The notes beneath the pieces were generated by a model that was not told where the DNA came from, searched no databases, and worked only from the letters and a program-made list of their open reading frames with translations. Of a DNA stretch of 56,335 bases, positions 2,824 to 54,018 are shown piece by piece. A program made the position numbers and the translations under genes. The DNA is from Rhizaria sp. SCN 62-66 (Eukaryota): the NCBI GenBank assembly GCA_001724265.1, contig MEDY01000370.1:1-56335 (forward strand). Reading direction: 5' to 3'. How positions within the stretch are numbered: position 1 is the stretch's first letter; every line of letters starts with the position of its first letter.

Positions 2824-3947
2824 TGCTGGAGCTGAGGTTGGTGTGACTGCAGCTGCGGTTGTTGACTCTGCAGCTGGGACTGATTGTTTTGGCCTTGAAG
2901 CTGAGGCTGCTGGTTTTGCAGCCGAGGCTGTTCGTTGCCAATGTACTGCCCCTGATCAAAACCATCGTGACCTTGACTGCTTTTGAATTCACCACCGTTA
3001 TTGTGAACGGTGTTGTTCTCAGGATGACTCGCAAATAGCCCACTATTGTTCTGTTTGTTGTTATCGCTCCGAGCCCTGTCCTCAGCAGTCGCAGCGACAG
3101 GGCCGGGCGCAGCAGCAGCGGGCGCAGTGTTACGCGGTGCAAATGCAGGCCAGCTGATGCGCACCAATCCCCCCGCACCCGCGCCGGCGCCGGCGCCGTT
3201 ACCAGCGCCGGTATTTGCGGCATCCGCGTTGCCCGCAGTCGTAGTCGCAGCGGGGACAGCGGAAGCAGGGGGGGAAGAGGCAGGCACGGCTGCAGAGTCC
3301 GTCTCCGAGTCAAAGCCATAACGGAGATGGCCAGTGCCGTTGCCGCTGCCGTTGCCATTGGTGTGGTTGTGGTTGTTGCCGACGGCGTTCGAACTGTTAG
3401 GGAGCTGCGGACCGAGGGGCTGCGGACCGAGGGGCTGGATGCTCACGGGCACACCCGCATCGCCATTAGCGCCGTCAACCGCCTGGGCGCCGCCGTGTGG
3501 GCCGGACGGCTGCATATGTTGCTGTCGCTGAGGAGGCTGCTGTGGGGCGTGGCGCTGTTGCTCCTGCTGCTAAGGCCGGGGCCGTGCAGTGAAGACGGGG
3601 AAGCTGTCGTCAGCGCCGCCGTAGTAGTCGCCGTCCTCGTCCGCAAACGCAGCAGGGGCGTGAGAGTTAGCCGTGGCGTCTCCGTCAGCGGCGCGCGGGG
3701 TGGTCAGCCGGCGGAACCCCGGCCTGGGGCCATCGACGCGGTCCTCATCGCCCCCGGCCGCAGCAGCAGCAACAGCAGTGTGCGCTGGCGCCGCGGGGCC
3801 GTGTGTGGGCGCGGAGAAGAGGAAGCCCGGCTCCGGTAACGGCTGCGCGGGGGGCAGACCGAAGTTGTTGTCGGCGGAGTCGGAAAAGTCTGCCTCTCCG
3901 GCCGGTGCCGGAGGGGTAAGCAGCGGAGAGTACGGCACGGGGTCCAT
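1..3947 (-). CDS. Large low-complexity (Gln/Pro/Tyr/Ala/Asn-rich) protein of unknown function, 3' end beyond the window edge; one in-frame TAG at 3570-3572
   Basis: ATG at 3947 (MDPVPYSPLL...). The frame continues through TAG (ARPRP*QQEQQRHAPQQPPQRQQHMQ) and stays open for about 3.5 kb to position 1. It includes poly-Q, NPY/DPY repeats and a globular-looking segment (LLWHPTRRLRLP...EVSCQFVQDCERNLLLIGIP). Confidence 0.8.
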
Positions 3948-6157: not shown

Positions 6158-7142
6158 GTGTACAGGCGTTGGGGGACGACGACTGTGCTCCGCGTGCGGT
6201 GTGACCGTGGGCATTCAGTGACTGTGAGCACTCAGTGACTGTGAGCACTTAGTGATCATGGGCGCGATCGAATGAAGTACGGATGTTTGAGTGTGTTGGT
6301 GGTGACTGTGAGCGTAGGTTAGCGCTTGACAGGCTACTTTTACGGCACTTAGACTTCTCAAGTGCTTCAAAACTGACTGAGTATACTGTTCTTCAGTAGA
6401 AATGTTGCTCACTGACAGTTGTCTTGTAATCACTCAGATTTTTTACACGTCTCTTCACTGGCGGGTATGTCGCTGGTGTGGATAGCGGCTCATTGCTGTG
6501 TTGCGTCTTAGTCAGTCAGTGCCTGGAACTGCGACTGCGCCTGCGCTTGTGACCGCGACTGCACAATGATGATGTTGAGGTTTTGATGTTCATGTACAGT
6601 TGAGAAGTGATGAAAGGGCACTGACGAATAAACAAGTGTCTTATTTTATGCGATACATCACAGTGGTTGTTTGAATATTCTTCAATTTTTTCGTTAATAA
6701 TGTCAGTATGACTTTGTAACAGAGTCACTGAAAATGAATCTACTGATTACAGCCAAAAGGTTGAGAATACGACCGTAATTACGGTAATAACGAGCACCCT
6801 CGAGGCGCTGTGCTGGCTCGTTTGTGGCCAAGATCCTGACTTGATTTTGATTGTATGCCATGGATCAATCGTCAACTGTACTTGCACACGGCTAATCGCT
6901 CACCAAACATTGTGTGATTAATGGACATTTTATTAGAGCATCGAAAAACCTTTGGAAATCGCCTTAGAATCTTCTTTGTTTTTCTCGCTTTTGGCCTTCG
7001 CCTTCCTCCCCTCCTTCTGCAGATCTTGAAGAGCACATTTAACTTTGAAATATTGCTCACTACGTAAAACCACCCCGCGCAGACGCACACACAGACACAT
7101 TTTCATTGATATCAATCTCTATTTGTTGAGCCAGCTGTCTGT

Positions 7143-9857
7143 ATGACCTGGCCCGAGCGTCGTGCTCTGGTCGAGCTCAACAAGGCGCTTGCTCCTGTTG
7201 CTGCACTCTCCACAAGTCTGGATGACCTCGCAACGCTTTCCGCGAAGATTCGCAAAGGGCCTGAGGGCGAAATGATCGACACGTTTGTTGAGAACAACAA
7301 CGTTGTTGATATTCTCGCACGCCTCCTCGACCTTCATGACGACAAGAAAGCTGAGCGCAGGCGTGACATTGTTCTGCGGCTCTTCGAGCGCCCTTACATT
7401 AGCAGCCGTTTGGTCACCAAAAGCACCCTGCTCTCACACCTCACAAGCGTCATCGCCCGCAACCCAGAGGCTGGTGACGCTGCGCGCATCCTCCGTCTGG
7501 TCTCGCACCTCGCCGAGCGCTCGCGCGATATCGACTTCCCCGCACCAGTCATGGCAGCCGCTCTGACGAACATGCTTGTCTTTACCGAGGCAGTCGCAGA
7601 CGCGCTCTTCCCCCGCGTCATCGAAGGCGATAAGTTCTACACGTCCCCCGTTGACAACGTGTTCTGCGACTGCATGTACGGTCTGGCGGGCCTCTGTGCT
7701 AACCGGCCGACGCTGCCGCCGTACGCCGCCGTCGCAGGCTTCGTACCGCTACTGCGTCGTGTGCTGGAGCGCGCGCGCGATACGCCGCCCCACGAGAGCG
7801 CGAAAGACGGGATGATTGATTGGGTGACGGGCAGTCTCTCCGTTCTTCTCGCGGTTGAGAACAACAGCAGCAGCGCCGCGGAAGATGCGCACGCGCTCGC
7901 TATGAGCTCCGGGTTCGACCTCGTGCTTGGGACGCTGCTTTTCAGGCATATGTACATCTCCCTTGTTGAGAGATGCGCACTATCGCTTAATGCTGATGAA
8001 ACAGCGTCTGTTTTCACGGAGCCCCGCATTGAGGAGTTCTGCGGCATGTTCTATCACTTCCAAGGCGAGTGGCCCGATCAAGACACCACACGTCTCGCCC
8101 GCATCATTGCTCACGTCGGGGCCGCCGTGCCTGAGCTGCCGGCGAGGCTTGTGTATGACGAAAACGTCAAGCTGTTGAACCTTTGGGACGCGAGGAACTT
8201 TGTCGTGAGTCTTCATGAGGAGACTGAAGCGGATATTTCTGATACTCGGACCAACGAGATTCGGTTGTATCCCAACGTCACAAAGATTTTTGATGCTTTG
8301 CTGTCAACCGCTGCGGACCGCATCAAGATGGCAACGTATATGTTTAAGTTTAACGTGCACGTGTACTGCCTGCGTGTGTTAGAAAGGGCTCTGTGGAACC
8401 CCCGCGGCTACATTCGCCACATCCACCACAACAACCCCCTGATGACTGACAGCGCAGTGGCATCGTCACTTCGCACTCTACGACTTTTGACTGAGATTAA
8501 CGCCACATCACCTATTACCGGGCATGCTGAAAGCCCGACAGCTCACACGTTTTCCACCGATTTTTTCTCTCGGAATGGCGAGTGTTTCCTGGATGCACTG
8601 CGTTACACAGACTACATGCAACGCGACGGCCCCGCACTCCAGGAGCTTGCGCAGCTGCGCGCATTGCTCGAGCGCCTGAACATGGTCGCACCTACTCCAA
8701 CAGCTACAGAGGATGCGATTGCTCAACGGGAGCAAGCAAGCTCGGCGGTGCGCGCTTTCGCGGAGAGCTGCGAGTGCGGCGAGCAGCGTGCGTTTGATGG
8801 CGTTGTTGCGCGCGCCCTCGAGAGTTGCGATTTCCCGTACCGCGTTATTCCGCGTCTCAATAACCGCCTCTACTACAGTCAGATGCAATTTCAGAAGCCC
8901 ACACGCGATGCGCCGGGTCCGTCCGATGCGGCGCTGGCGCTGCTGCGGCTGAAGGCACGCGCAAGCATTCGTGCCCGAGCCTCAGCGGTGATCGTGGAGA
9001 GTAAACTTCGGTCAGATTTGGTGATGAGCGCTCGGCTCTACAACGCTCAGACAGAACAGTGTGACACATACACCATGACGCTTGCGGTTGATGATGAGAA
9101 GTACCCGTCTCACGCCGCGTATTTCCGTGTTGCGGCGCAAGAGGGTGCGCTCGGCTACCGTTTGCACGGGTGCTTTGGAGCGCGGGACGGCAATTCGCCA
9201 TTTATTGCTCTGTACCGCCACCAGCGCGCGCTGAATTGTCCTCCTAAGACGCCCGTAATGCCCGAAACTGACTGCGTCTACGGCGAGTATACTGCACCAA
9301 CCGCAGATACGGCAAAGACCGTGACGTATCCTGGCGGCACTGTGCTGATGTACCCGCGTGCAGCTTTGCCCGAGCAGCGCAGGCGTCCAGCGGTTGACTC
9401 TTACGGAGATCTTTGTCAGAATCTCGGGACATGTGACACTCCATGGTTCATTGTGTTCAAGCCTTGTGACGCAAGCGTGCTTCGTGGCGCCGTGCCAGTT
9501 GGCCGCGTTGTTTCTTGCACCACTGGGTTTGCGAGTGGGCAAAACTATCTCCCCGCTTCGCCGTCAGCAAATAATAGCGATGATGAATATGATGAACATG
9601 ATTTGTTCAACGCGACCCTCTCGAGGTCCACCTTTCAAACCAGTCTTGTGAAGCAGGGTGGATGTGAGTCTATTGATGCAGACGATGTGCAGGCGGCGGT
9701 GAGCCGCATCCACGAGCGTGGACCATTCGACGAGGTGGTGCTTCGGTGCTTTGAGACTCATTGTAGGCTGACGAACTGCAATAACGTGAATCAGCGGTCG
9801 TTCATTGCACTCGCAATCGACAGCCCAGAGAACAGGAGGGCTTTGGAACAGCTGTGA
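7143..9857 (+). CDS. 904-aa intronless protein; helical, ARM-like N-terminal part and a possible divergent cyclophilin-like C-terminal part
   Basis: Long ORF with coding-like codon usage and a TGA stop. The fold assignments are by eye only. Confidence 0.75.
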   Translation: MTWPERRALVELNKALAPVAALSTSLDDLATLSAKIRKGPEGEMIDTFVENNNVVDILARLLDLHDDKKAERRRDIVLRLFERPYISSRLVTKSTLLSHLTSVIARNPEAGDAARILRLVSHLAERSRDIDFPAPVMAAALTNMLVFTEAVADALFPRVIEGDKFYTSPVDNVFCDCMYGLAGLCANRPTLPPYAAVAGFVPLLRRVLERARDTPPHESAKDGMIDWVTGSLSVLLAVENNSSSAAEDAHALAMSSGFDLVLGTLLFRHMYISLVERCALSLNADETASVFTEPRIEEFCGMFYHFQGEWPDQDTTRLARIIAHVGAAVPELPARLVYDENVKLLNLWDARNFVVSLHEETEADISDTRTNEIRLYPNVTKIFDALLSTAADRIKMATYMFKFNVHVYCLRVLERALWNPRGYIRHIHHNNPLMTDSAVASSLRTLRLLTEINATSPITGHAESPTAHTFSTDFFSRNGECFLDALRYTDYMQRDGPALQELAQLRALLERLNMVAPTPTATEDAIAQREQASSAVRAFAESCECGEQRAFDGVVARALESCDFPYRVIPRLNNRLYYSQMQFQKPTRDAPGPSDAALALLRLKARASIRARASAVIVESKLRSDLVMSARLYNAQTEQCDTYTMTLAVDDEKYPSHAAYFRVAAQEGALGYRLHGCFGARDGNSPFIALYRHQRALNCPPKTPVMPETDCVYGEYTAPTADTAKTVTYPGGTVLMYPRAALPEQRRRPAVDSYGDLCQNLGTCDTPWFIVFKPCDASVLRGAVPVGRVVSCTTGFASGQNYLPASPSANNSDDEYDEHDLFNATLSRSTFQTSLVKQGGCESIDADDVQAAVSRIHERGPFDEVVLRCFETHCRLTNCNNVNQRSFIALAIDSPENRRALEQL

Positions 9858-34800: not shown

Positions 34801-37800
34801 GGGGCGCGAAGTTTGCCGCCGCACAGGCGCACACAGCGCATCTACCGGGCCGGCTGGGCGGCCGTGTGATTGCCGACGCGCCGGTGAGCACGCTGTCGGG
34901 CGGGCAGCGGCGGTGCGTGTCGCTGGGCATCGCGCTGATTGGCGACCCGAAGCTGGTGATCTTGGACGAGCCGACGGCGGGGCTGGACGTCGCGGCGCAG
35001 GCCTCGGTGCGCGCGCTGCTGCAGGAGCAGCGCAGGCACCGCGCGATCCTGCTCACGACGCACTCGATGGAGGAGGCCGAGATCTGCGACCGCATCGGCA
35101 TCCTCGCCAACGGCTCGCTGCAGACTGTGGGTTCAAGTCTGTTCCTTAAGCGCACGTTCGGCGCTGGTTATGTGTTGTTTGTTTCCAAGGCACCTGAGGA
35201 GACTTTGATCGAGACTGCAGCCCGCGGAAAGGCCGCTGTCGCCGCTGCAGCCGCGGCGATGGCCGTGCTGGAGCCAACCCCAGAAGAACTTGCCGTTGAA
35301 GAGTCCACGCGAGTGCGGCTCACGCCGTCAGGCCGGCGCATTGCGCGCGCCTTATCAGCCGTGAGTGCGGAGCTTGTGGCACTCTCTGACGTCGCTGGAG
35401 ACATGAAATTCGCGATTCCAATCGCTGCAGTGTCACGTCTGCCCGATCTGCTTGATATGATTGAGCGTGATAAATCGGCTCTTAAGGTCGCGTCCTTTTC
35501 CGTTTCTGTCACACCACTTTCAGACGTATTTTTTACCGTGGCCAACGCCGCTGTCGTTGATGACGATGTACCTCATGCTGTCGTTCAAATCCCATCGGTT
35601 AAGCTGCGTCCGGAAGACTCGCTTGTGCACAGCAGCAAGTCTTCATTGCAATCCTACCGCGAGGCTGCTGCCTCCGCTTTAGCCGCCCCCCGTGCCAATG
35701 GGAGGGCTGGAGATGCTGATGACAGTCTTGACGCCGTCATTGTTGCCGATTCGATGCTTAATTTGACTCAGGCTGAGCTGCGGGGTGAAATCAAAGGAGG
35801 CGAGGGGGCTACTGCGACCCAGAGCGACGAGAGTCACGTGGCGACAGTTAAGCATATGGCTACTCGTGCGAATAATTGTCTTTCAACCCCACTGCTGTCA
35901 GATGCTGAACCGACAATGATTAGCAATATGTGTCACAAACATGTCTTTACCAACACGCAACCCGACTGTGATCGCGCGATTGACAACATCAACAAGAGCT
36001 CGAATGATTCTATCCGCGAGGTTTGCAGCGATTCCACGACAAGCGGTGTCAGTACCAACAACGGGCTCAATCCCTCGAAGACAGCCACTTTGGACCACCC
36101 CAATGATGCTGGCGCTGACATCAATGGTTTCTTCGCGCACAATGACAACCTTTGGCTTGATGACTTTGCACACCGCCGCCTTTATGGCCGCTCCGTTTTC
36201 TGCGACATTTTGCGAGCAATGTACTCCAAGCGCGCAAGAATTTCGCGTCGCGATTGTATTCCGATTTTTGTTCAGACTCTTGTTCCCGTTGCGGCTGTTT
36301 TTGCGTGCATGATGGCGCTGTATTTCGCCTTTGCGCAACCTGATCCTCGAGAGACGGTTGATTTTACACGATCAGGATTATTCTCTGAGCTCCCGGCGTC
36401 GCCAAAGGCTGCACTTACTCCACTGTACGAACACAGCGAAGGCGCCGCGCTGTTTACCAATGAATACGCACGACTCAGTGCGGCGGACGCCGCTCTCCAA
36501 CCTGTCGTTGTGACGCCCCGGGAGCACATTTATGCCGATTCGTGCTACAACGCATTCACATATCAGGAACATACCTTGCAGTTGATCAAGGGACTTGTTG
36601 CACCAGATTTCTACGGTGCAGTGATTGCCGTGTGCTCAGCAGAGAACATGTTCCTAGATACCGAATCGAGTGTTTTCAAGTCGACTAGCGCGAGGACTCG
36701 TGGCAACATTGGTGCTGCGACGGCGTCCGACTTTTCAGCAATGGTTTTGATGAACACAACTGTTCCAGATGCTCTGATCCTGGCGCAGGTTGATATCACT
36801 AACGCCATGCTTAAAATGGTCCATGATCGCTCTCTCGCTGCCGCTGCTGTCGTTGCGAGTGCGGATGGCGATAACTCAACAACAGCGATTTCGAACTAGA
36901 ATTTCATGACTGCATCTACACCTGCCCAGTTCCAGCTATCATTCACCACGCGCGTGGATTCGGTGGTCGCGGCAAAAACGTTCTTTCCAGAAGGTGCTCC
37001 AGCCGCGATCTCCATTGCTGTGGCGCTTGTGCTGCTGTCGAGTCTTTATGGAATGGTGCCTCTTCAGGTACGACCACTTGAAATTTTGACATGCATCATG
37101 GAATGTTTATAAATGTACATGTACCGTCTTATCTTTTCCTGGACCCCTAATTCTTGTATTCTTCTTTGTCTTGATTTCTACTTGACGTTACTTGCTGTCA
37201 CAGGAGCGTGTGTCACAGTCGAAGCATTTGCAGTATGTGTCTGGCGGGTCCAGCCCGGCGTATTGGATTGCAAACTTTTTCTGGGACATCACCGTCGCAC
37301 TTGTTCCCTACTTGGTATTCATCGGTGTCGGTCTCTTCACACACAGCTCTTATCTCTGTGGTCTGGACGTGTTTCTGATTTACTGGTCATTCACGTTTGC
37401 GTCGATCCTTCAGGCTTATTGCATGAGTTTCTTTTGCGAAACCCCTGGCCGCCTACAAACCGCCATGTACCTTGTCAACGCGGGCTCCATTGCAATTCTC
37501 ATGCTCACGCTTAGCGCCACAGTTGATCTCACATTACAATCAGCCGAAATAACAGAGACCCTGCCGTTGTCACGGATTTTCACAGTTATGTTTCCCACTG
37601 GCGGACTTCTCATTGCAATCTTTTTTTCCGTCATGGGCCCGCTATCTGGGGAAACGCTCGCGACGTTCTCGCCTAAAATCTACGCCGGATTTATTGCTGC
37701 CTCTGCGGTTTTCTACACAATCTTGCTAATCATTTTCGAGGTCAAGTCGCGGTACGGACTTGCCGACTGGCTACTGTGCGCGCGTGCGCCTCTCCACATG

Positions 37801-39617: not shown

Positions 39618-41573
39618 ATGGCTTCTTTGGGATTCCGTGGTGGCGACGCCAAGTCTGTTGATTGCGACACTCCTGTTCTGCCCGACTGCATTGCTTCGCG
39701 CAAGACGCAGCCTTTTATGCCGGCCATTATTGTCCACGGTGGCGCAGGATGGATTTCTGACGAGCGCGCTGTGGTCTGCATTGAGGGCGTTGAACGCGCG
39801 GCAAAGGCAGGCTACGCCGTGCTCATGCGTGGAGGGTCCTCCATGGACGCCGTCTAGGCCGCTGTTCGGTACGATAAATTCTTTCCATAACAAGATGACG
39901 TTCATATATAGCCATTTAAATGGGGGTTGGAGCAATTTCCACTCACCTCGGAACTTTACATGTCTAATTGCTTTATATAAACCTATTTTTTATTCCTTGC
40001 CTCTCGCAGCGTCATGGAAGACGACGAGCAGTTCAACGCCGGCCGCGGCTCCGTCCTGACGACCGCCGGCCATGTCGAGCTTGACGCCGTTGTCATGTGC
40101 GGCGACACGCTTGCCGCGGGCGCCATCGCGGGCGCCACGTGCCCCCGCAACCCTGTCTCTCTGGCCCGACGCGTCATGGAGGCGACTCCGCACGTGCTTC
40201 TAACTGGCCCTGGCGCCGATGCTTTCGCGCGCGAGCCCGGGACCGGCGTGCAGTGCGAAGGGCCCGAGTACTTCATCACCGACACGGCGCGCGCACGGCT
40301 GGAACGGATGCGCGCCGCTGCCACCGCGGCTGTGGCTGAGGAGGCCGTCGCCAAGACCCACGCCAGCTCTGCGACGATCACTTCTGATGCTGCGAATGTA
40401 GCTAAGGCGGGATTCCGCAGCGCGCTCGCCGCTGGCGAGGCCCCGCCCGACGTGAACTCCTTTATGTCTCCTTCCGCCAGTGCAGGCAGCGCTGACGCCA
40501 CGAAGCACGCCGCTGCTGTCACGGCCGCGGGGCCCGGTTTAGCCACACTAGTGGCGAAAACGCTCTCCGCTTCAAGTTGCGTTGCCAGTGGCGCCCAGCG
40601 CGTTGTTGACGGCGTTTGCGAGAAGATTCTCCGCGACCGTGGGTTCGAGCACGACACGGTCGGCGCGGTTGCCATTGACGCCACTGGCTCTATTGCCGGC
40701 GCGACGTCGACAGGTGGCATGAGCAACAAGCGTGCTGGCCGTGTCGGTGACGCCCCCATCGTCGGCGCCGGCGTCTATGCGTACGTCATCCGAAACATAT
40801 CCGCAATGCATTTCCACCATAATTTTGCCTTTTGCATTCGCACTTTCTATGTTTCATTTTTACCTCATTCTGCACATGAGTTGTTTCACATCTTGTTTTG
40901 TTTGCTTGGTTGTTTGTTTGTTTGTTTGTTTTGTTTATACAGCGACTCCGCGGTCGCCGGTGTGTCAAGCACCGGTCACGGAGAGGCCATCCTCAAGGCT
41001 GCACTTGCCTCCCGCGCCGTCATCGCCCTCGAGACTGCCACCGCAGCTGACTGCAAGAAGCAGGAGCAGACTAGCAGTGACCATGAGAGTGACCATGGGC
41101 GCGCACTCGTACTCTATGCGCTCGTCACTGTGGCTGATGCAGAGGCCGCGCTAGGCGCTGACGCTGCGGCCGCGCTCCCGCGCTACGGTTCGCACTGCCT
41201 CGCGCCTCTGCCATCCACCGTCTCCGGCGATCACAGTATCGGCAGGGGTAACTCGTCAGCTGCGACTACGCCTGCGCCTGTGCCTGCGCCCGGGAGCGAC
41301 TGCGAACTCGCTCTCGCCCACGCGCTGCGGTACATGCAGACGCGCGTGGCCGACAGCGAGGGCGCTGGGCTGGTAGCGGTTGACAGCAAGGGTCGCACGG
41401 CGCGCGCGCATAATGCACCACGCATGAGTTGGTGCTCCGTCGAGACTGTGGCAGTTCCAAACAGCAACAACAAGAGCGATGATGACAAGAGTGGCGCTAT
41501 GCGTAAGGTGGGTGTTTGCACGGCGGGTGTTGAGGCGTACAGGCCCGTGCTGCGCGCGGCCATGCACTGGTGA
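39618..41573 (+). CDS. Isoaspartyl peptidase / L-asparaginase type 2 (Ntn-hydrolase), about 550 aa (exons 39618-39868, 40010-40780, 40943-41573; TGA stop); in-frame TAG at 39855-39857
   Basis: PAIIVHGGAG, GGSSMDAV*AAVRVMEDD.QFNAGRGS, ELDA..M.G, NPVSLAR, HDTVGAVA (Thr nucleophile), ATSTGG..NK..GRVGDAP..GAG.YA, STGHGE. Confidence 0.93.
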
Positions 41574-43099: not shown

Positions 43100-43745
43100 G
43101 GCGCAGGGTTGCGTTCGTGTGTGTGGGCGTCGAAATCAGGATATAGGCTCCTAGGCAGAGAGAAGTCGCGCCGTAGTGTGTGGCGCTGTTAGAGAGGCGC
43201 AGTTTGCCATTCAGAAGAGTGCAAATTGGTGAGCATATCATTCCAGTGTGACAACATTATAAGAATATATTTATCAGCCGACTTAAATCTCTCTTGAAGC
43301 AGTGTAATAAATTCCATCGGCGGACTTCTGAGTGCACAGTGAGATGTTGCTAAGTCAGTCATTGGTCGATCACTTTTTCTTTTTTCCGGTCCGTTGGCGA
43401 TCGACGATTGAGGTTTTCGAGCAGCTTTTGGTGACCGTGGGCTAAGGGCCACTTAGCTCAAAGCAGAGAGGACCCATCTGGCAAGCAACAAACATAATAT
43501 TTCGCGTCCTATAGCCCACGGGGTAGAGTGGCAATAGTTTTTTGTGATATACCACTGTATTTTCCAATTACACTTTAAACAAGACTTCTGATGAGTCAGA
43601 TGGGGACGCATACGAGCCTTCCCGACGTTTGCATAGAGCCCCCTTTCAGACCTGTCCCAAGCCCACTTTCCAAATCGCCCTCTGTTTCCCCCACATTCAC
43701 CCTGTTTCGCTCTTTGACGTTTTTGCCCACTTGTTTCGTAGTGTG

Positions 43746-46700
43746 ATGAGGTTTCTTGTTGGAATCCTTGTTGGCATCCTCGCTGCCGCCGTCGGCTCCG
43801 AGGCCATGTCTGTGACGAGCCGCGTCGAGCAGGCGTCCCTCTACCCTTCCGGTGTGGCGGCGCCCGTCGTGGCCGTTGCTGCCGAGGTTGCCGCCCCCGC
43901 GCACGTTGCTTCCGCTGAGGTCGCCGTCTCTGCCGAGGTCGAGGTCGAGGCTGAGCTCGAGTCCGAGTTCGGCATCGCTGCTTCGTCTTCCTTCATCGAG
44001 ACGGAGTTCGCCGAGGACGCCGAGGAGGAGGCTGAGCTTGACGCCGACATCCAGGCCGACATCGAGGCCGAGTACGAGGCCGAGGTTGAGGTCGACGCCG
44101 CCGACGAGGCCGAGGCTCCCGCCCTGCTCGAGCTCGACGCCGAGGCCGACATCGAGGCTGAGGCTGACGCTGAGTCCGCCATCAACTCGTTCCTCGAGGT
44201 CGCTGCCGAGTCCGAGATTGACCTCACCGCCGAGGTTGAGGAGGAGGCTCTCGCACAGGCCGAGTACGAGACCGCGTTCGAGGAGTTCCTGACCAACCCC
44301 ACTACTCCGGCCAAGGTCGAGGACAAGAAGGCAAGCGTCAAGGCCGCCGAGGCCGCCGTCAAGGCCGACCTCGCTGCTCCCGCTGCTCCTCTCGGTGCCA
44401 CTGCCAAGGCTGATGCCAAGGCCGCCGCTAAGGTTGAGACCAAGAAGGAGGAGACGAAGGAGGCCGTCGCCGCTGCTGTCGCTGCCCCGGTCAAGAACGA
44501 GACCGCCGCCGTCTCGAACGCCACCAGCGCCGCCGTTGCTCCTGTCAAGGTTGAGGATAAGAAGGCTGCCGAGGCTGCCATCAAGGCCGACCTTGCTGCT
44601 CCCGCTGCTCCTCTCGGCACCACCGCCAAGGCCGACGAGAAGGCCGCCGCAAAGGTCGAGTCCAAGAAGGAGGAGAAGAAGGAGGCCGCCGCCGCCGGTG
44701 CTGCGCCTGCCTCCGAGGCTAAGCTTGAGGATGCTAAGGCTGCTGTTGCCGCTGACCTCGCCAAGCCCGCTGTCACCTCTGCTGCGCCCGTCGTCACCCC
44801 CATCCCGGCTGTCGGCGCCGCCGCTGCTGCCAAGCCCGCCTTCCTGGAGGAGGAGGAGCCCGTCGTGGTCGCCCCCGCCCCCTCTGCTGCTGCTGCCCCT
44901 GCTTCCGCCAAGCTTGAGGATGCCAAGGCTGCTGTGGCCGCTGATCTCGCCAAGCCCGCCGCTGCTGCTGCCCCCGCTGCCGCTGCCGATGCTGCGCCCG
45001 CGTCTGCCAAGGTCGAGGCTGCCAAGGCCGCTGTCATCGCCGACCTCGCCAAGCCCGCCGTCGCTTCCTCTGGCAAGAACGAGACGTCGATTCCTGCTGG
45101 TGCCGTCATCCCTGTCAAGGTCGATGACAAGAAGGCTGCCGAGGCCGCCATCAAGGCTGACCTCGCCACGCCCGCTGCGCCCCTCGGTACCACCGCTAAG
45201 GCCGACGAGAAGGCCGCCGCGAAGGTTGAGGTCAAGAAGGAGGAGAAGAAGGAGGCTGCTGCCGCTGCTGCTGCCCCTAGCTCCGCCGCGCCCGCCGCTA
45301 CTGCATTCGTCGAGTCCCAACCGATCTACACCAACCGTCTTGACAAGATCTTTGCCCTCAAGCAGAACATCGTCGCCGTCGCCACCCCGCACGAGACCGA
45401 CGGCAGCCGCCTCATCATGGACACGCTCACGGGCAAGATTGCCGTCATCAAGCCCCGCCCGCCGCCGGTGCCCCTCTTGCCCGGACAGCTCCCCCCGTAC
45501 CGCCCCCCGCGCCCGTTCTTCCCTCCGGGCGTGAATGGCCAGACCTCGATCCTCAAGCAGGCCCTCGACGCGTACCGCCGTGAGCAGCGCATCAACGCCG
45601 CCGAGCTCGCCATCACGGACCTCTTCGGCACCACCGCCTCCACTGCCGAGGCTGCCTCGACCGCCACCTCCACCGCGGACGCCGCGGCTTCTGCTGACTC
45701 GAGCGAGGACGCGACTTTCGTCGAGCAATACAGCGCTAACTCCACCGCCGCCGCCGCTGCTGCCGACCCCAAGCCCGTCGTCGCCGCCGCCACCGTCGCA
45801 AAGGCCGAGGCTAAGACTGAGGCCAAGAAGGCCGAGGTCAAGGCTGAGGTCAAGGCCGCCGCCGTCCCCGCCGTCGCTAAGGCCGCCGTTGCTGCCAAGG
45901 TCGCCTCTGGTGACGCCGTCAAGGCCCCTGTTGCCGCCGCCACCACCGACATCAAGGGCCAGGCACTCGCCGCTGCGCTCGCCAGCGCTGTTGCCAGCAA
46001 TGGCACCGCCGTTGCCACCAACGGCACCGGCGCCGCCGTTGCTGCTGCAGCCCCCGCCGTTGTGCCCGTCAAGGTCGACGTCAAGGCCGCCGAGGCCGCC
46101 ATCAAGGCTGACCTCGCTGCTCCCGCTGCTCCCCTCGGTGCCACCGCCAAGGCCGACGAGAAGGCTGCCGCCAAGGTCGAGACCAAGAAGGAGGAGAAGA
46201 AGGAGGCCGCCGCCGCCGCTGCTGCTCCCAGCTCCGCCGCTGCCCCCGTTAAGGCTGATGACAAGAAGGCCGCCGAGGCTGCCATCAAGGCTGACCTCGC
46301 TGCTCCCGCCGCGCCCCTCGGTGCCACCGCTAAGGCTGATGCCAAGGCTGCTGCCAAGGTTGAGGAGAAGAAGGAGGCCGCCGCCCCCGCCGCCGTCTCT
46401 GATGTCAAGCTCGAGGCTGCTAAGGCCGCCGTTGCCTCTGACCTCGCCAAGCCCGCTGCCGCCGCTGCTGCCCCCGCCGCCGCCGCCGCCGCTGCCCCCG
46501 CGATGTAGAGTGTTAGCACCCCTGCCACTGCCGCTGCTGCCGCCGCCGCTAAGACCTCGCTCCTCGACTCTGCCGTCCCCGAGGACGTCGCTGCGTCTAT
46601 CGACGACCAGATCGCGCTCGGCAAGGCCCGCGACGGCCGCCAGGCCTCTGGCCGCCCCGTGCTGCCGCGCAAGAACCAGCTCCACGCCGAGTACGACCTC

Positions 46701-46934
46701 GCGCAGCGCGCTTCGACATTCAAGGCCGCGCAGGCCAAGATCCAGTCGCTCGGTGATCAGATGGCGCGCGCTGAGGCCGCGGCCGCCGCCGAGGCCGACC
46801 TCGCGGCAGCGACCATGAACGGCCTGCTCACCCCTGAGCCGGCGTCGAACGTCATCATCGCGGGCAAGACCAACTTCCGCCCCAACGATGAGTTCGTCCT
46901 TGCGTCCGCCAACACCGGCGTGCCCCTCGTCTAA
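43746..46934 (+). CDS. Secreted or surface Ala/Lys/Glu-rich repeat protein, about 1062 aa; in-frame TAG at 46506-46508; TAA stop
   Basis: Signal peptide MRFLVGILVGILAAAVGSEA, acidic region, internal repeats, and strong GCC/AAG/GAG codon bias. The frame continues after TAG (APAM*SVSTPATAAAAAAAKTSLLDSAVPED...) into the 46659-46934 ORF. Confidence 0.88.
44341..46460 (+). repeat. Intragenic dispersed repeats: 5 x KAAEAA(I/V)KADLA.PAAPLG.TAKAD.KAAAKVE and 4 x K(L/V)E.AKAAV..DLAKPA
   Basis: Read directly from the translation and from the near-identical nucleotide blocks. Confidence 0.9.
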
Positions 46935-49040: not shown

Positions 49041-50432
49041 TCAGTGACCCGTCGTCGTCGAGTCTGTTGTTGCGTTTGCCTTCTCTTCGTCCGCCACCAC
49101 AGCCTCAACCAGCTCAATGGCGCGCTTGATGCCACATCGTTCGCTCTCGTCCCACGCCAACATCGCCTCCAGAGCCAGGAGCTCGTTCTCCCGCACTTTG
49201 TGACATGGGTATGCAGCCACAAGTGAACGCAGACCCTCATGCTGTAATTTTGAATATGCCCGAGTTTTATAGAAGAGTTTTTGTGTCTTCTCGAGTTTTT
49301 GTGTCTTCTCGTTCTCGCGGATGCGTTCCTCATTGTCATACGGCGCAAAATCGGTGATGAACACGAACAGCATATAGCCTAGTGCGTAGATATCAGCCTT
49401 GAACGGGTCGAAGTTTTGCCTCAAAACTTGAGGAGAGTTGTACTTAGGGGTTCCCATGGTCCCACTCATGCGCTCAGCGACGACTGTTCCTGTGAGATCA
49501 GGCAGTTGACGAGAAATCTTTTGCGGAGTAGGCCACTCATCCTCAGCTAAGCTCTCGTTGACGCCGTCCATGCTCAGAGCTGGAAGCTGCTCGCTGAGAA
49601 ACGCAGGAATATCCTGGCAGATCGTGCTGATAACGCGCTGCCGGCTTTCCTCGTCGTGCTGCTCCAGATGAGCCGGATCTACCACGGGACCAAAGCTGTT
49701 CTTGAGAGACTCGTGTGAGCGGCGCCAGAAATCGGTGCAGGACTGTGCGATTCTCCACCATTGTGATGCCGTCGCGACATAGTTCTCATTAGCACCGGCG
49801 GGAGCGATGAAGCGAGCCGGTGTCGCAACGCGTGACATGCCGAAGTCGATGAGCTTCACGAATAGTTCTTTAGTGATTGCACACCGTTTGAACACCACGT
49901 TCTCAAGCTTGAGGTCGAGATGTGCCATGTAAAGACGGCTGTGCATGTAGTCAACTGCGTAGAGCAGATCGAGGAACATGCGCAGCCTCTCCAGGCGAGT
50001 AGTAGTTGCGACTTCATCGAGCCACAATGAGAGGACCTGGGCTCCGCCATCCTCCATCGCAAGGGCAACACGCTTCTGCTGAGCAGGGTTACCAACCGAC
50101 GCAGCAGCTAGAACTAGGGCCGTCTGTGGGAAGCACGGATGCCTCTCGCAACCCACAAAGCGGGTTGCGGCCCACTCGACAAGGGGGTCCTCGAGCTCAG
50201 AAATATGGATCTGATTGGTGGAGATCTTAGTGACTACTTTCTGCCCACCAAGACCGACAGCATGTGCCGCAACCCGATTGTCTTTGGCAATGATAATTTT
50301 GTTTTTAGGCTAGTCGACGAGCGTTCCGACTATTGGGTTGAGTAGGGTGCGAGTCTGCTCCTCGACGTCCTCGAAGTCCACGACGGCTGTTGGATCTACA
50401 GGGTCGTAATGCGTGCGCAAAGCTGATAACAT
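49041..50432 (-). CDS. Divergent Ser/Thr protein kinase, about 463 aa, intronless; in-frame TAG at 50310-50312; TGA stop
   Basis: ATG at 50432, ...GTLVD*PKNKIIIAKD...QKVVTKIS (VAIK equivalent), EDPLVE (helix C), HLDLKLEN, VKLIDFG, GTPKYNSPQV, KADIYALG, ML.WDESER. Confidence 0.85.
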
Positions 50433-50537
50433 TGCGCCGGCTGCAATTGCAGAGGGTAGAATACATGCGTTATAGTTTTGTTGTAATAGTGTTTTGCTGT
50501 GAGACTTTGATCGTGATCAAAAACAAAGGGAGAGCGT

Positions 50538-51951: not shown

Positions 51952-54018
51952 TCACACACCGCCGCCAACAGCGCCCTTAGCCACCGCCCCGCCTTGCGCC
52001 GTCTGTCCCGCAACCACAGCTGCAGCCGCACTTGGTGCCGCTGCCGCCGCAGCCGCAGCCGCCGTAGCAGCAGCTGCAGCTGCTGCTGCCGTGGCCGTGG
52101 CTGCAGCCTGCTGCCTCGACTTAAACACCGGCATTTTATGCGGCGGACACGGCGCGGGCGCCTCTGCAAACCACGGGTGACGCACGGCCTGCGCCGCTGT
52201 AATGCGCCGCGCCGGGTCATAACACAGCATGCGTCCGAGCAGGTCCACGCCGGCCTCTGACCCGGAGAGCGCGGGGAACGCGGCCGCGAGCGCAGGCGGG
52301 GACGGTGCGCCGGGGGCCGCGGCCGCTGCGGTGGCGGCAACGGCGGCGGGGGACGTCAGCAGCGGCGCGCACGCCGGCCACGCGGCGACGGTGGGCGGGC
52401 CGAGCAGACCGGCGATGCGCAGCACTTGCTCGGTGGTGTTGCCGCCAGGGAACAGCGGGTGGTGCAGCAGCAGCTCGCCCATGACGCAGCCGGCGGCCCA
52501 CATGTCCGCCGCCGTGTGGTAGCCGCCCGCGTTGAGCAGCAGCTCCGGGGCGCGGTACCACAGCGTGTAGACTGACGGGGATAGGGGCGCGAGAGGAGTC
52601 GGGAGAACGCGTGCGAGGCCGAAATCAGCGATCTTCAGGTCGCCTAAGGGCGACACCAGGAGATTACTCAGCTTGATGTCGCGGTGAATAATGCCCATGT
52701 CGTGTAGGTACTCTAGTCCGCGCAGCATCTGCAGCACAAGCGTCTTGACTTCGGAGACCGTGAAATGGCGTGCAGTGCGATCTAACAGCGTGCCCAAGTC
52801 ATACTCGCACAGTTCGAACACGATGAACACCTGGTTCGGCTGCCGGCCCACCACAACGTCCCGCAGCGCGACAATGTTGCGGTGCTCTAGCCGCCGCAGC
52901 AGCGCGACTTCTCGGAGAGACGTGAGATGGAATCCAAGGAGCTCGTTGGTGAGCAACAGCCGCTTCATTGCAACAGTCTCGCCGCTGCGTCGGTCTTTGG
53001 CCAAATAGACAGTGCCGTAGGTGCCTTCACCAAGGCGGCGGAGCTTCTTGTACATCGTGATGCTCGCGCAGTGGAATGAGCCCATCTGTGCGTTGAGAAC
53101 TTGCGTGCTGCTATCCTGATGCTGCTGCTGCTGCTGCTGCTGCTGTTGCTGTTGTTGCTGTTGCTGTTGCTGCGGCCCAGCTTCAGTCCCCGTTGTCCCC
53201 GTCGCGGGCGCAGGGTCGGCCGGCGGCGGCTGCGACTGGAGCGGCGGCAGCGGAGCCTGCGCCTCGCTCCCCGCAGCAGCGGCGGCGCTCGCGGTAGCAA
53301 AGCTCCACTGCTGATACTGCAAGAGGTGTTGTTGTTGTAATGCGTGCTACTGCGCCTGGTGTTGGTAATACTGCTGCAGCTGTTGTTGTAAATCGTAGAT
53401 GCCACCGCTCGCAGTGTCACTGCCACCGAAATAGGAGCTAGAGCTTGAAGCAAACTGCGAGGGCACGTTGTTGTAGTTATGAGACGAATAGGGTCCGAAC
53501 ATATGCTGCTGCTGCTGCTACTGCTGCATCGTCGGTAAGAAGGCGGGTGAGTACGCGTCAGTTGCAGCACCTGTACTATTCGCGCTCGCACTTGCACCCG
53601 TAGTCGCGGTCGCACTGTTTGCATTCGCTGCGTTTGCAGACGAACTTGCTGGAGCAGGCATGGGGCCATACGGCTGTTGCTGTTGCTGCTGTTGTTGCGC
53701 TGCCGCTGCTTCTGCGCTCGCAGATAAAGCCTCGAGGGAAGGGTGTCCGTAGAGGTATGCACTCTCTGCTGCGTTGAGTTGCTGCTGGAGCTGCTGATGT
53801 AGGTATTGTTGCCTCTGCTGCTGCTGCTCTTGGTGCTGTGAAGTGGACGTGTGTGGCAGTTGGCTAGAAACTGCGTTGTTCGCGCTGCCACCGCGGCCGT
53901 CGTAATTGAAGGTCTTAGAAATGCGCATTCCTGTGTCGGGGAGTGGCGTCTGGTCCGGTTTGATGCTGTGTGTCGTGCCGACATCATCGGTCATGGGCAT
54001 CACGCGAGTGGATTGCAT
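51952..54018 (-). CDS. CDK10/CDK11-like cyclin-dependent kinase with a long Gln-rich N-terminus, about 688 aa; in-frame TAGs at 53518-53520 and 53347-53349; TGA stop
   Basis: GEGTYG.VY.AKD, VAMKR, GFHLTSLRE (PSTAIRE position; compare CDK10 PISSLRE), DVVVG, HRDIKLSNLL, DFGLAR, TLWYRAPELL. The upstream frame is continuous through two TAGs. Confidence 0.9.

What the first reader, a model, noticed from the sequence alone, without database searches (positions are those of the whole stretch)
39840..39868. TAG inside a conserved helix of the asparaginase
GGSSMDAV-TAG-AAVR|VMEDD lies in the conserved DAV(E)AAV..LED motif of type-2 asparaginases, 11 nt before a GTACG donor. A stop here would remove the whole catalytic domain, yet all later motifs are intact. 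Homologues usually have Glu here, so Gln is a conservative fit, but this site alone does not exclude UAG=Glu.
Basis: partly seen in the sequence, partly recalled or inferred. Interest (0 to 1): 0.75.

Follow-up and report, generated by a model that had tools for sequence, protein, structure and literature searches.

The report
Protist reads UAG stop as glutamate
This uncultured single-celled eukaryote appears to use the 'stop' codon UAG as a rare glutamate codon while UAA and UGA still end its genes, a nuclear genetic code that I did not find described in the literature I could search.

Summary
The in-frame TAG (39855-39857) in the only type-2 asparaginase gene found in this genome is real; contigs from other runs carry it too. 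It is one case of a genome-wide code change. After coding runs, TAA (55 of 58) and TGA (29 of 30) give way to non-coding DNA, whereas TAG continues as coding in 11 of 13. One paralogue family holds 31 internal TAG against 1 TAA and 0 TGA. TAG columns are Glu in asparaginases (80 of 136; Gln 10), eRF1 (97 of 111; Gln 0) and FAP21 (5 of 5 shown). A paralogue likelihood test ranks Glu first. The genome has one tRNA(CUA) with a Glu-type acceptor stem, and its D-arm word marks tRNA-Glu in 78 of 78 bacterial tRNAs. The single eRF1 has T32S, G57S and T58K and itself contains a TAG. Against: a minority of TAGs sit in Gln columns or poly-Gln tracts, TAG is very rare, and there is no RNA or proteomic evidence. 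Known UAG-only codes give Leu, Gln or Ser; known UAG=Glu codes also reassign UAA.

The parts
39855..39857 (+). In-frame TAG, read as a sense codon (most likely Glu), at the DAV(E)AAV position of the asparaginase
   Evidence: identical in contigs of runs X5 and X11
39618..39868 (+). First coding exon of the type-2 asparaginase / isoaspartyl peptidase gene. Start is either ATG 39618 or ATG 39717; an acceptor-like ttttag just before 39618 hints at an upstream exon
   Evidence: PF01112 positions 1-52
39869..40009 (+). Intron 1 (GTACG...CGCAG, 141 nt, phase 2)
   Evidence: a relative's contig in run X4 has an intron at the same place (joint 39873-40008, 166 other letters)
40010..40780 (+). Exon 2: rest of the alpha subunit, a long Ala-rich linker and the start of the beta subunit (HDTVG with the nucleophile Thr)
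   Evidence: PF01112 53-218, E 3.8e-47
40781..40942 (+). Intron 2 (GTACG...TACAG, 162 nt, in frame, no stop)
40943..41573 (+). Exon 3, ending at a TGA stop (41571-41573)
46506..46508 (+). Second in-frame TAG of the window, inside a 1128-codon Ala/Glu/Lys-rich ORF that ends in TAA
50310..50312 (-). In-frame TAG upstream of the kinase domain in ORF 49041-50516
53347..53520 (-). Two in-frame TAGs (53347-53349, 53518-53520) in the Gln-rich N-terminus of a CDK-like kinase; these are the Gln-like minority of sites
3570..3572 (-). In-frame TAG before a Gln-rich stretch in a 1371-codon ORF
7110..9857 (+). Member (without TAG) of the Pfam-less paralogue family used as the genome-wide test set

Best explanation
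This organism has a variant nuclear genetic code: UAG = glutamate, UAA and UGA = stop. A single-copy tRNA gene with anticodon CUA and a tRNA-Glu body (G000:C84:76008-76080, minus strand) reads UAG and is presumably charged by the one cytosolic GluRS. The single eRF1 (G000:C63) carries T32S, G57S and T58K in its stop-recognition motifs and presumably no longer competes well at UAG. UAG has left gene ends and is used as a very rare third Glu codon: about 0.4% of Glu codons in conserved, codon-biased genes and about 3% in a fast-evolving family. The asparaginase TAG is thus an ordinary Glu and the gene is intact. Shown by tools: in-frame TAGs, stop usage at predicted gene ends, column preferences, and the tRNA and eRF1 sequences. 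Inferred: charging with Glu, loss of UAG recognition by eRF1, translation of the mRNAs.
For: Gene-end test on about 800 kb of own DNA: TAA 55 of 58 and TGA 29 of 30 are followed by non-coding DNA and 0 by coding; TAG 11 of 13 by coding and 1 by non-coding (Fisher p 1e-13). Paralogue family: 53 matches hold 31 TAG, 1 TAA, 0 TGA. The only eRF1 gene found needs TAG read-through at human E107; that column is E97, D12, V2, Q0 of 111. Asparaginase column, from homologues found with a query lacking the site: E80, T18, V14, Q10, 13 gaps of 149. FAP21/EFHB: E in 5 of 5 alignments shown. SUV3: D and S; UBC6/J2: D and S; no Q. Leave-one-out likelihood over 27 of 29 family TAG sites: E 7.6, K -1.7, N -5.3, Q -5.7 nats; 0 of 5000 resamples of true Gln codons reach the observed E-minus-Q score. 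Pfam bits summed over 9 sites relative to E: Q -2.2, K -3.0, D -5.7, S -8.2, Y -14.9, L -17.4, W -20.0. Neighbouring residues are Glu-like at 17 of 22 TAGs (GAA 82%, CAA 39%). tRNA(CUA): Rfam 58 bits and a poly-T terminator, in a nuclear contig. Its first five acceptor pairs equal those of both own tRNA-Glu, and its nearest own tRNA is Glu(CUC), 47 of 73 versus 33 and 29 for Gln. Its 20-nt D-arm word occurs in 78 tRNAs among 80 bacterial loci, all 78 tRNA-Glu. The 9 annotated records among the 17 longest phage-collection matches are all tRNA-Glu, at weak E-values. Differences to relatives in run X4 fall on third codon positions in 35 of the 39 listed exon sites.
Against: A Gln-like minority exists. 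One family column is Q21 of 32. Pooled over family TAG columns, Q is enriched 2.8-fold against 3.0-fold for E. A ubiquitin-like domain has TAG where own paralogues have Q. 3 of 22 TAGs sit in Gln-rich context, more than GAA does (p 0.009). The family E-minus-Q score lies in the low 1.8% tail of true Glu codons. The Pfam margin over Q and K is only 2-3 bits. A tRNA tree left tRNA(CUA) unresolved on a long branch, and it is only 64% identical to the own Glu(CUC). Gene ends were predicted from composition, not from transcripts. The eRF1 reference set was 111 best hits, not a curated taxon sample.
Confidence: 0.85

Rival explanations
1. UAG = Gln (NCBI table-15-like code, as in Iotanema, Hartmannula and Trochilia); the Glu columns are conservative replacements.
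For: TAGs in poly-Gln tracts, the Q21/32 column, the ubiquitin-like site; the tRNA has A37-A38 like the own tRNA-Gln(UUG); small Pfam margin.
Against: 0 of 111 Gln at the eRF1 site and 10 of 136 at the asparaginase site; Glu in 5 of 5 FAP21 alignments; resampled Gln codons never match the family score. The tRNA acceptor stem and D-arm are Glu-type, and A38 is also common in the bacterial tRNA-Glu matches. Between two Gln, TAG occurs once in 864 against 113 CAA. CAG-to-TAG transitions explain Gln-context TAGs under a Glu code.
Confidence: 0.05
2. Ambiguous or incomplete reassignment: UAG is mostly Glu, but with some Gln from near-cognate tRNA-Gln or some termination by eRF1, which would keep it rare.
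For: TAG is extremely rare in conserved genes (20 of 97,833 codons); a single tRNA gene; mixed E/Q signal; TAG sites are less conserved than ordinary Glu sites. The eRF1 T32S change is conservative.
Against: At most 1 of 85 predicted gene ends uses TAG (95% upper bound 6.4%), and that one is followed by GC-rich, possibly coding DNA. Other A/T-rich sense codons are also rare (ATA 30, AGA 28). The codons after TAG begin with all four bases, so no read-through motif is evident.
Confidence: 0.07
3. Pseudogene, assembly error, or splicing or RNA editing that removes the TAG.
For: No RNA run covers the site. Several apparent in-frame TAGs elsewhere proved to be intron acceptors.
Against: The same TAG is in contigs of other studies. 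It is the only lesion in the only PF01112 gene found, with third-position-biased divergence. The stop excess is TAG-specific (31:1:0). The only upstream GT that keeps the frame (39836) and all in-frame mini-introns ending at this TAG would delete the colinear conserved motif. Editing to Trp is disfavoured by 20 bits. A dedicated tRNA(CUA) exists.
Confidence: 0.02
4. UAG = pyrrolysine or another non-standard residue (ARAGORN labels the tRNA 'Pyl' from its anticodon).
For: Only the label.
Against: The tRNA has a canonical cloverleaf matching RF00005 over all 71 positions and Glu-type arms; the TAG sites are ordinary surface Glu/Asp positions in unrelated proteins.
Confidence: 0.01

Closest known systems
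Oligohymenophorea sp. PL0344 code, UAA=Lys and UAG=Glu (PMC10553269, passages read)
   Same: UAG=Glu with tRNA-Sup(CUA) most similar to tRNA-Glu.
   Different: There UAA is also reassigned and only UGA stops, with ten CUA tRNA genes 69-93% identical to tRNA-Glu. Here UAA is the main stop, there is one CUA gene at 64%, and the organism does not look like a ciliate.
UAR=Glu codes of peritrich ciliates and Blastocrithidia (PMC5304391, PMC12153298, passages read)
   Same: UAG read as Glu; in Blastocrithidia by a tRNA-Glu(CUA) derived from tRNA-Glu.
   Different: UAA is Glu as well (dual meaning in Blastocrithidia, where UGA=Trp). Here no in-frame TAA or TGA excess and no tRNA(UUA) was found.
UAG-only reassignments: rhizarian exLh (Leu), Iotanema spirale (Gln, eRF1 T32G), phyllopharyngean ciliates (Leu, Gln), Protocruzia tuzeti (Gln), Scotinosphaera (Ser) (PMC5304391, PMC11687900, passages read)
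   Same: UAG is sense while UAA and UGA stay stops; eRF1 Thr32 is altered as in Iotanema; found in a metagenomic assembly like the TARA ciliates.
   Different: The amino acid is Glu. UAG is very rare here, whereas 78-91% of genes carry one in the phyllopharyngeans. eRF1 has T32S plus G57S and T58K.
Type-2 (plant-type) asparaginase / isoaspartyl peptidase, PF01112 (human ASRGL1, E. coli IaaA)
   Same: All three exons match; the catalytic-Thr motif is present.
   Different: Long Ala-rich linker and a roughly 100-residue insertion in the beta subunit; one UAG codon.

Membership tests
UAG-only stop-to-sense nuclear codes | In-frame UAG in conserved, intact genes, far above UAA and UGA | tested here: met
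   31 TAG, 1 TAA, 0 TGA in 53 family matches; eRF1, asparaginase, kinases, FAP21, UBC6, SUV3
UAG-only stop-to-sense nuclear codes | UAA and UGA retained as terminators, UAG not used at gene ends | tested here: met
   84 predicted ends at TAA or TGA, at most 1 at TAG; ends predicted from composition only
UAG-only stop-to-sense nuclear codes | Cognate tRNA(CUA) present | tested here: met
   G000:C84:76008-76080
UAG-only stop-to-sense nuclear codes | eRF1 has lost UAG recognition | not testable with these tools
   Sequence changes T32S (Thr in 111 of 111 homologues), G57S, T58K, L126M and K130Q seen; function untested
Table-15-like code (UAG=Gln) | UAG columns are Gln and the tRNA derives from tRNA-Gln | tested here: not met
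UAR=Glu codes (peritrichs, Blastocrithidia) and the PL0344 code | UAG decoded as Glu | tested here: met
   by column statistics and tRNA type only; no peptide evidence
UAR=Glu codes (peritrichs, Blastocrithidia) and the PL0344 code | UAA also used as a sense codon, with a tRNA(UUA) | tested here: not met
   0 of 58 TAA followed by coding DNA; pattern searches gave no tRNA(UUA); a gene with an intron or missing from the assembly would be missed
Context-dependent stop/sense codes (Condylostoma, Blastocrithidia) | The reassigned codon still terminates near mRNA 3' ends | tested here: inconclusive
   At most 1 of 85 ends, upper bound 6.4%; no transcript ends available
Pyrrolysine decoding | Non-canonical tRNA-Pyl architecture | tested here: not met
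   canonical tRNA, full-length RF00005 match
Pyrrolysine decoding | pylS and pylBCD genes | not tested
   no search run
Type-2 asparaginase (PF01112) | Domain match over the curated cut-off, with the nucleophile-Thr motif | tested here: met
Type-2 asparaginase (PF01112) | Autoproteolysis and amidohydrolase activity | not testable with these tools
   needs an enzyme assay
Cercozoa / Rhizaria (lineage of the organism) | Polyubiquitin and ribosomal protein L1 insertions (PMC6133090); phylogenetic placement | tested here: inconclusive
   No polyubiquitin junction assembled and the L1 gene is cut at a contig end. Best named GRP94 hits are Paulinella 57%, Lapot 54%, Cafeteria 53%; sister to Paulinella with SH-aLRT 81 only

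The most novel reading that the evidence does not exclude
The new code was founded by a tRNA-Glu of bacterial or organellar origin, moved to the nucleus under a Pol III terminator, fitted with a eukaryotic Glu acceptor stem and switched to CUA. Its D-arm is an exact 20-nt match to bacterial tRNA-Glu and unlike the own tRNA-Glu D-arms. In addition, the UAG inside eRF1's own N-domain acts as a feedback site that keeps residual UAG termination low. The sister lineage, whose eRF1 is 86% identical, shares T58K but keeps Thr32, and may show an earlier step of the change.
Probability: 0.2. Interest if true: 0.9.

Novelty: new variant of a known kind. Interest (0 to 1): 0.8.

Why it matters
UAA and UAG almost always change meaning together, and the few UAG-only nuclear codes reported give Leu, Gln or Ser. 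UAG=Glu with UAA as the main stop would be a further code, in a lineage without named close relatives in the collections searched. The genome supplies what most such reports lack: the tRNA gene, the eRF1 with specific substitutions (T32S, T58K) and one GluRS. This makes it directly testable how eRF1 gives up UAG while keeping both UAA and UGA. The rarity of UAG and its rise in fast-evolving families fit a codon-capture stage in a GC-rich genome, not the AT-pressure route proposed for Blastocrithidia. In practice, standard gene callers truncate these genes: the database protein for this locus starts only in exon 2 (P0184).

Tried and rejected
No RNA holder was listed for the locus; the RNA-labelled run X6 is probably DNA and does not cover the site. 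Family searches for myosin, dynein, ABC, kinesin, DEAD, UCH and helicase domains gave few TAGs. On inspection, TAGs in L161, L162, L166, L167, L168, L169, L301, L302, L304, L305 and L308 were intron acceptors or intronic and were dropped; L307 was ambiguous and dropped. Of the 9 kinase matches with a lone TAG (142 matches), 5 are in exons. The UCH site and three other sites had no Pfam hit, and the FAP21 site lay outside its Pfam match. The USP5 alignment was uninformative (Cys). The MetRS site was scored for E and Q only (54.0 versus 54.1) and left out of the 9-site sum. A first, strict coding filter found only 4 TAGs. The tRNA tree and MFE folding were uninformative. The metagenome scan gave no close relative's locus, only distant homologues (a motif match in 21 of 80 gave E10, Q5, others 6). 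Lineage placement failed. Earlier findings of the scan: none returned. Rejected readings: mini-intron, alternative donor, A-to-I editing to Trp, pyrrolysine, and Leu/Tyr/Ser/Trp assignments.

Full report
Observation. The TAG is at 39855-39857, in frame in GGSSMDAV-TAG-AAVR, 11 nt before the GTACG donor at 39869. Splicing 39869-40009 and 40781-40942 gives an open frame with this single internal TAG and a TGA at 41571-41573. All three exons match PF01112, and this is the only PF01112 locus found in the 34.9-Mb, 714-contig genome. The site aligns without gaps to Glu of human ASRGL1. Contigs from runs of two other studies cover it unchanged. A relative has an intron at the same place, and 35 of the 39 listed exon differences to relatives fall on third codon positions (79 further differences were not shown). 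The only upstream GT that keeps the frame, and every in-frame mini-intron ending at this TAG, would delete the aligned motif.

The site is one case of a genome-wide pattern. On about 800 kb of own DNA I trained a coding model and asked what follows each stop triplet that ends a strongly coding run. TAA was followed by non-coding DNA in 55 of 58 cases and by coding DNA in none. TGA gave 29 of 30 and none. TAG was followed by coding DNA in 11 of 13 and by non-coding in 1 (Fisher p 1e-13). A Pfam-less family related to window 7110-9857 has 53 matches holding 31 TAG, 1 TAA and 0 TGA. The only eRF1 gene found (the other PF03463 locus looks like pelota) has a TAG inside its N-domain at human E107. 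TAG is rare: 20 of 97,833 filtered codons against 4406 GAG, 509 GAA, 3556 CAG and 415 CAA, and 29 of 18,662 in the family. Eleven apparent sites were intron acceptors or intronic and were dropped.

Which amino acid. At the eRF1 site, 111 of 120 homologues (kept by length) give E97, D12, V2, Q0. At the asparaginase site, 149 homologues found with a query that lacked the site give E80, T18, V14, Q10, I5, C2 and 13 gaps among the top classes. At the FAP21/EFHB site all 5 alignments shown have Glu. SUV3 and UBC6/J2 have Asp or Ser. In the family, a leave-one-out column likelihood over 27 of 29 TAG sites ranks E 7.6, K -1.7, N -5.3 and Q -5.7 nats. The method recovers the right residue for 14 of 15 control codons (AAA fails), and 0 of 5000 resamples of Gln codons reach the observed E-minus-Q score. 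Pfam scores over 9 sites reject Leu, Tyr and Trp by 15-20 bits but separate Glu from Gln and Lys by only 2-3 bits. Flanking residues are Glu-like at 17 of 22 sites.

Results against Glu. One family column is Q21 of 32, and pooled enrichment at TAG columns is 3.0-fold for E and 2.8-fold for Q. A ubiquitin-like domain has TAG where paralogues have Gln. Three of 22 sites lie in Gln-rich tracts, more than GAA does (p 0.009). The family score is in the low 1.8% tail of true Glu codons. My inference is that these TAGs arose by CAG-to-TAG transitions tolerated as Gln-to-Glu changes; TAG fills only 1 of 864 positions between two Gln, against 113 for CAA. Partial Gln decoding cannot be excluded.

Machinery. 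A pattern search found one tRNA gene with anticodon CUA at G000:C84:76008-76080. It is a full-length RF00005 match (58 bits), followed by a T-run, between ordinary nuclear genes. Among the own tRNAs recovered, it is nearest to Glu(CUC), 47 of 73, against 33 and 29 for the two tRNA-Gln. Its first five acceptor pairs equal those of both tRNA-Glu and its T-stem equals that of Glu(CUC). A tree did not resolve it. No tRNA(UUA) was found. One cytosolic GluRS and one GlnRS were found (told apart by recalled features). eRF1 has T32S (Thr in 111 of 111 homologues), G57S, T58K, L126M and K130Q, and keeps E55, L69 and S70. PMC5304391 (passages) reports that Thr32 bonds to the guanine of UAG and that Iotanema has T32G. 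PMC3384315 and PMC4381064 (passages) place T32 and T58 in stop recognition. That these changes remove UAG recognition is inferred. The chance that a gene of eRF1's length carries a TAG is about 9%, so a feedback role is only a possibility.

Organism. A eukaryote with GC-rich exons, AT-richer introns, about 11 dynein heavy-chain loci and FAP21, so probably a flagellate. Its holders are bioreactor and wastewater metagenomes. The SSU rRNA gene is very divergent and carries four group I introns. Best named GRP94 hits are the rhizarians Paulinella and Lapot, with weak tree support. A cercozoan identity is plausible but not shown. If it is a sainouroid, it would be a second UAG reassignment in the group of exLh (speculation).

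Comparison and novelty. It works like other UAG-only codes (suppressor tRNA plus altered eRF1) and shares the Glu meaning with peritrichs, Blastocrithidia and PL0344, but it fails membership of those codes because UAA stays a stop. PMC11687900 (passages) lists UAG-only codes as Leu, Gln and Ser. Four library searches (listings and abstract starts) showed no nuclear UAG=Glu code with UAA as stop. Subscription journals are largely missing from the library and I read no supplements, so an unseen report is possible. That no NCBI table matches is recalled, not checked.

Verdict. Probability that UAG is a sense codon genome-wide is about 0.97, and that it is plainly Glu about 0.85. New variant of a known kind; interest 0.8.

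Noticed in passing
L280 (G000:C706:2959-10403): Very divergent SSU rRNA gene with four group I introns; the first carries a long extra insert that may encode a homing endonuclease (not checked).
   Followed up: partly
window 7110-9857 (+) and at least 50 loci in G000: Large lineage-specific protein family without a Pfam match; one member (L042) is fused to a ubiquitin-like domain. It uses TAG about 8 times more often than conserved genes.
   Followed up: partly
L001 (G000:C63:103370-103699, -): eRF1 itself contains an in-frame TAG at human E107, so making eRF1 depends on UAG read-through.
   Followed up: partly
P0004 (unnamed eRF1, 86% identical): A relative's eRF1 shares T58K but keeps T32 and G57, and has Val at the TAG column; it may belong to a lineage with the same or an earlier code.
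   Followed up: no
L034:1489-1561 (-): The tRNA(CUA) D-arm is an exact 20-nt match to bacterial tRNA-Glu genes and differs from the organism's own tRNA-Glu D-arms; possible bacterial or organellar origin.
   Followed up: partly
L040, L041, L043-L045, L325: Ubiquitin genes are unusually divergent, start with an extra Met-Ser and some end with a three-residue tail; no polyubiquitin junction is assembled.
   Followed up: partly
window 40330-40640 and 41030-41310 (+): The asparaginase has a long Ala-rich linker before the nucleophile Thr and a roughly 100-residue insertion in the beta subunit.
   Followed up: no
window 43548-46934 (+): 1128-codon Ala/Glu/Lys-rich repetitive ORF with a hydrophobic, signal-like segment near its first Met; possibly a surface protein.
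   Followed up: no
window 36897-36899 (+): A further in-frame TAG near the end of the long ABC-transporter ORF; whether it is exonic or intronic was not settled.
   Followed up: no
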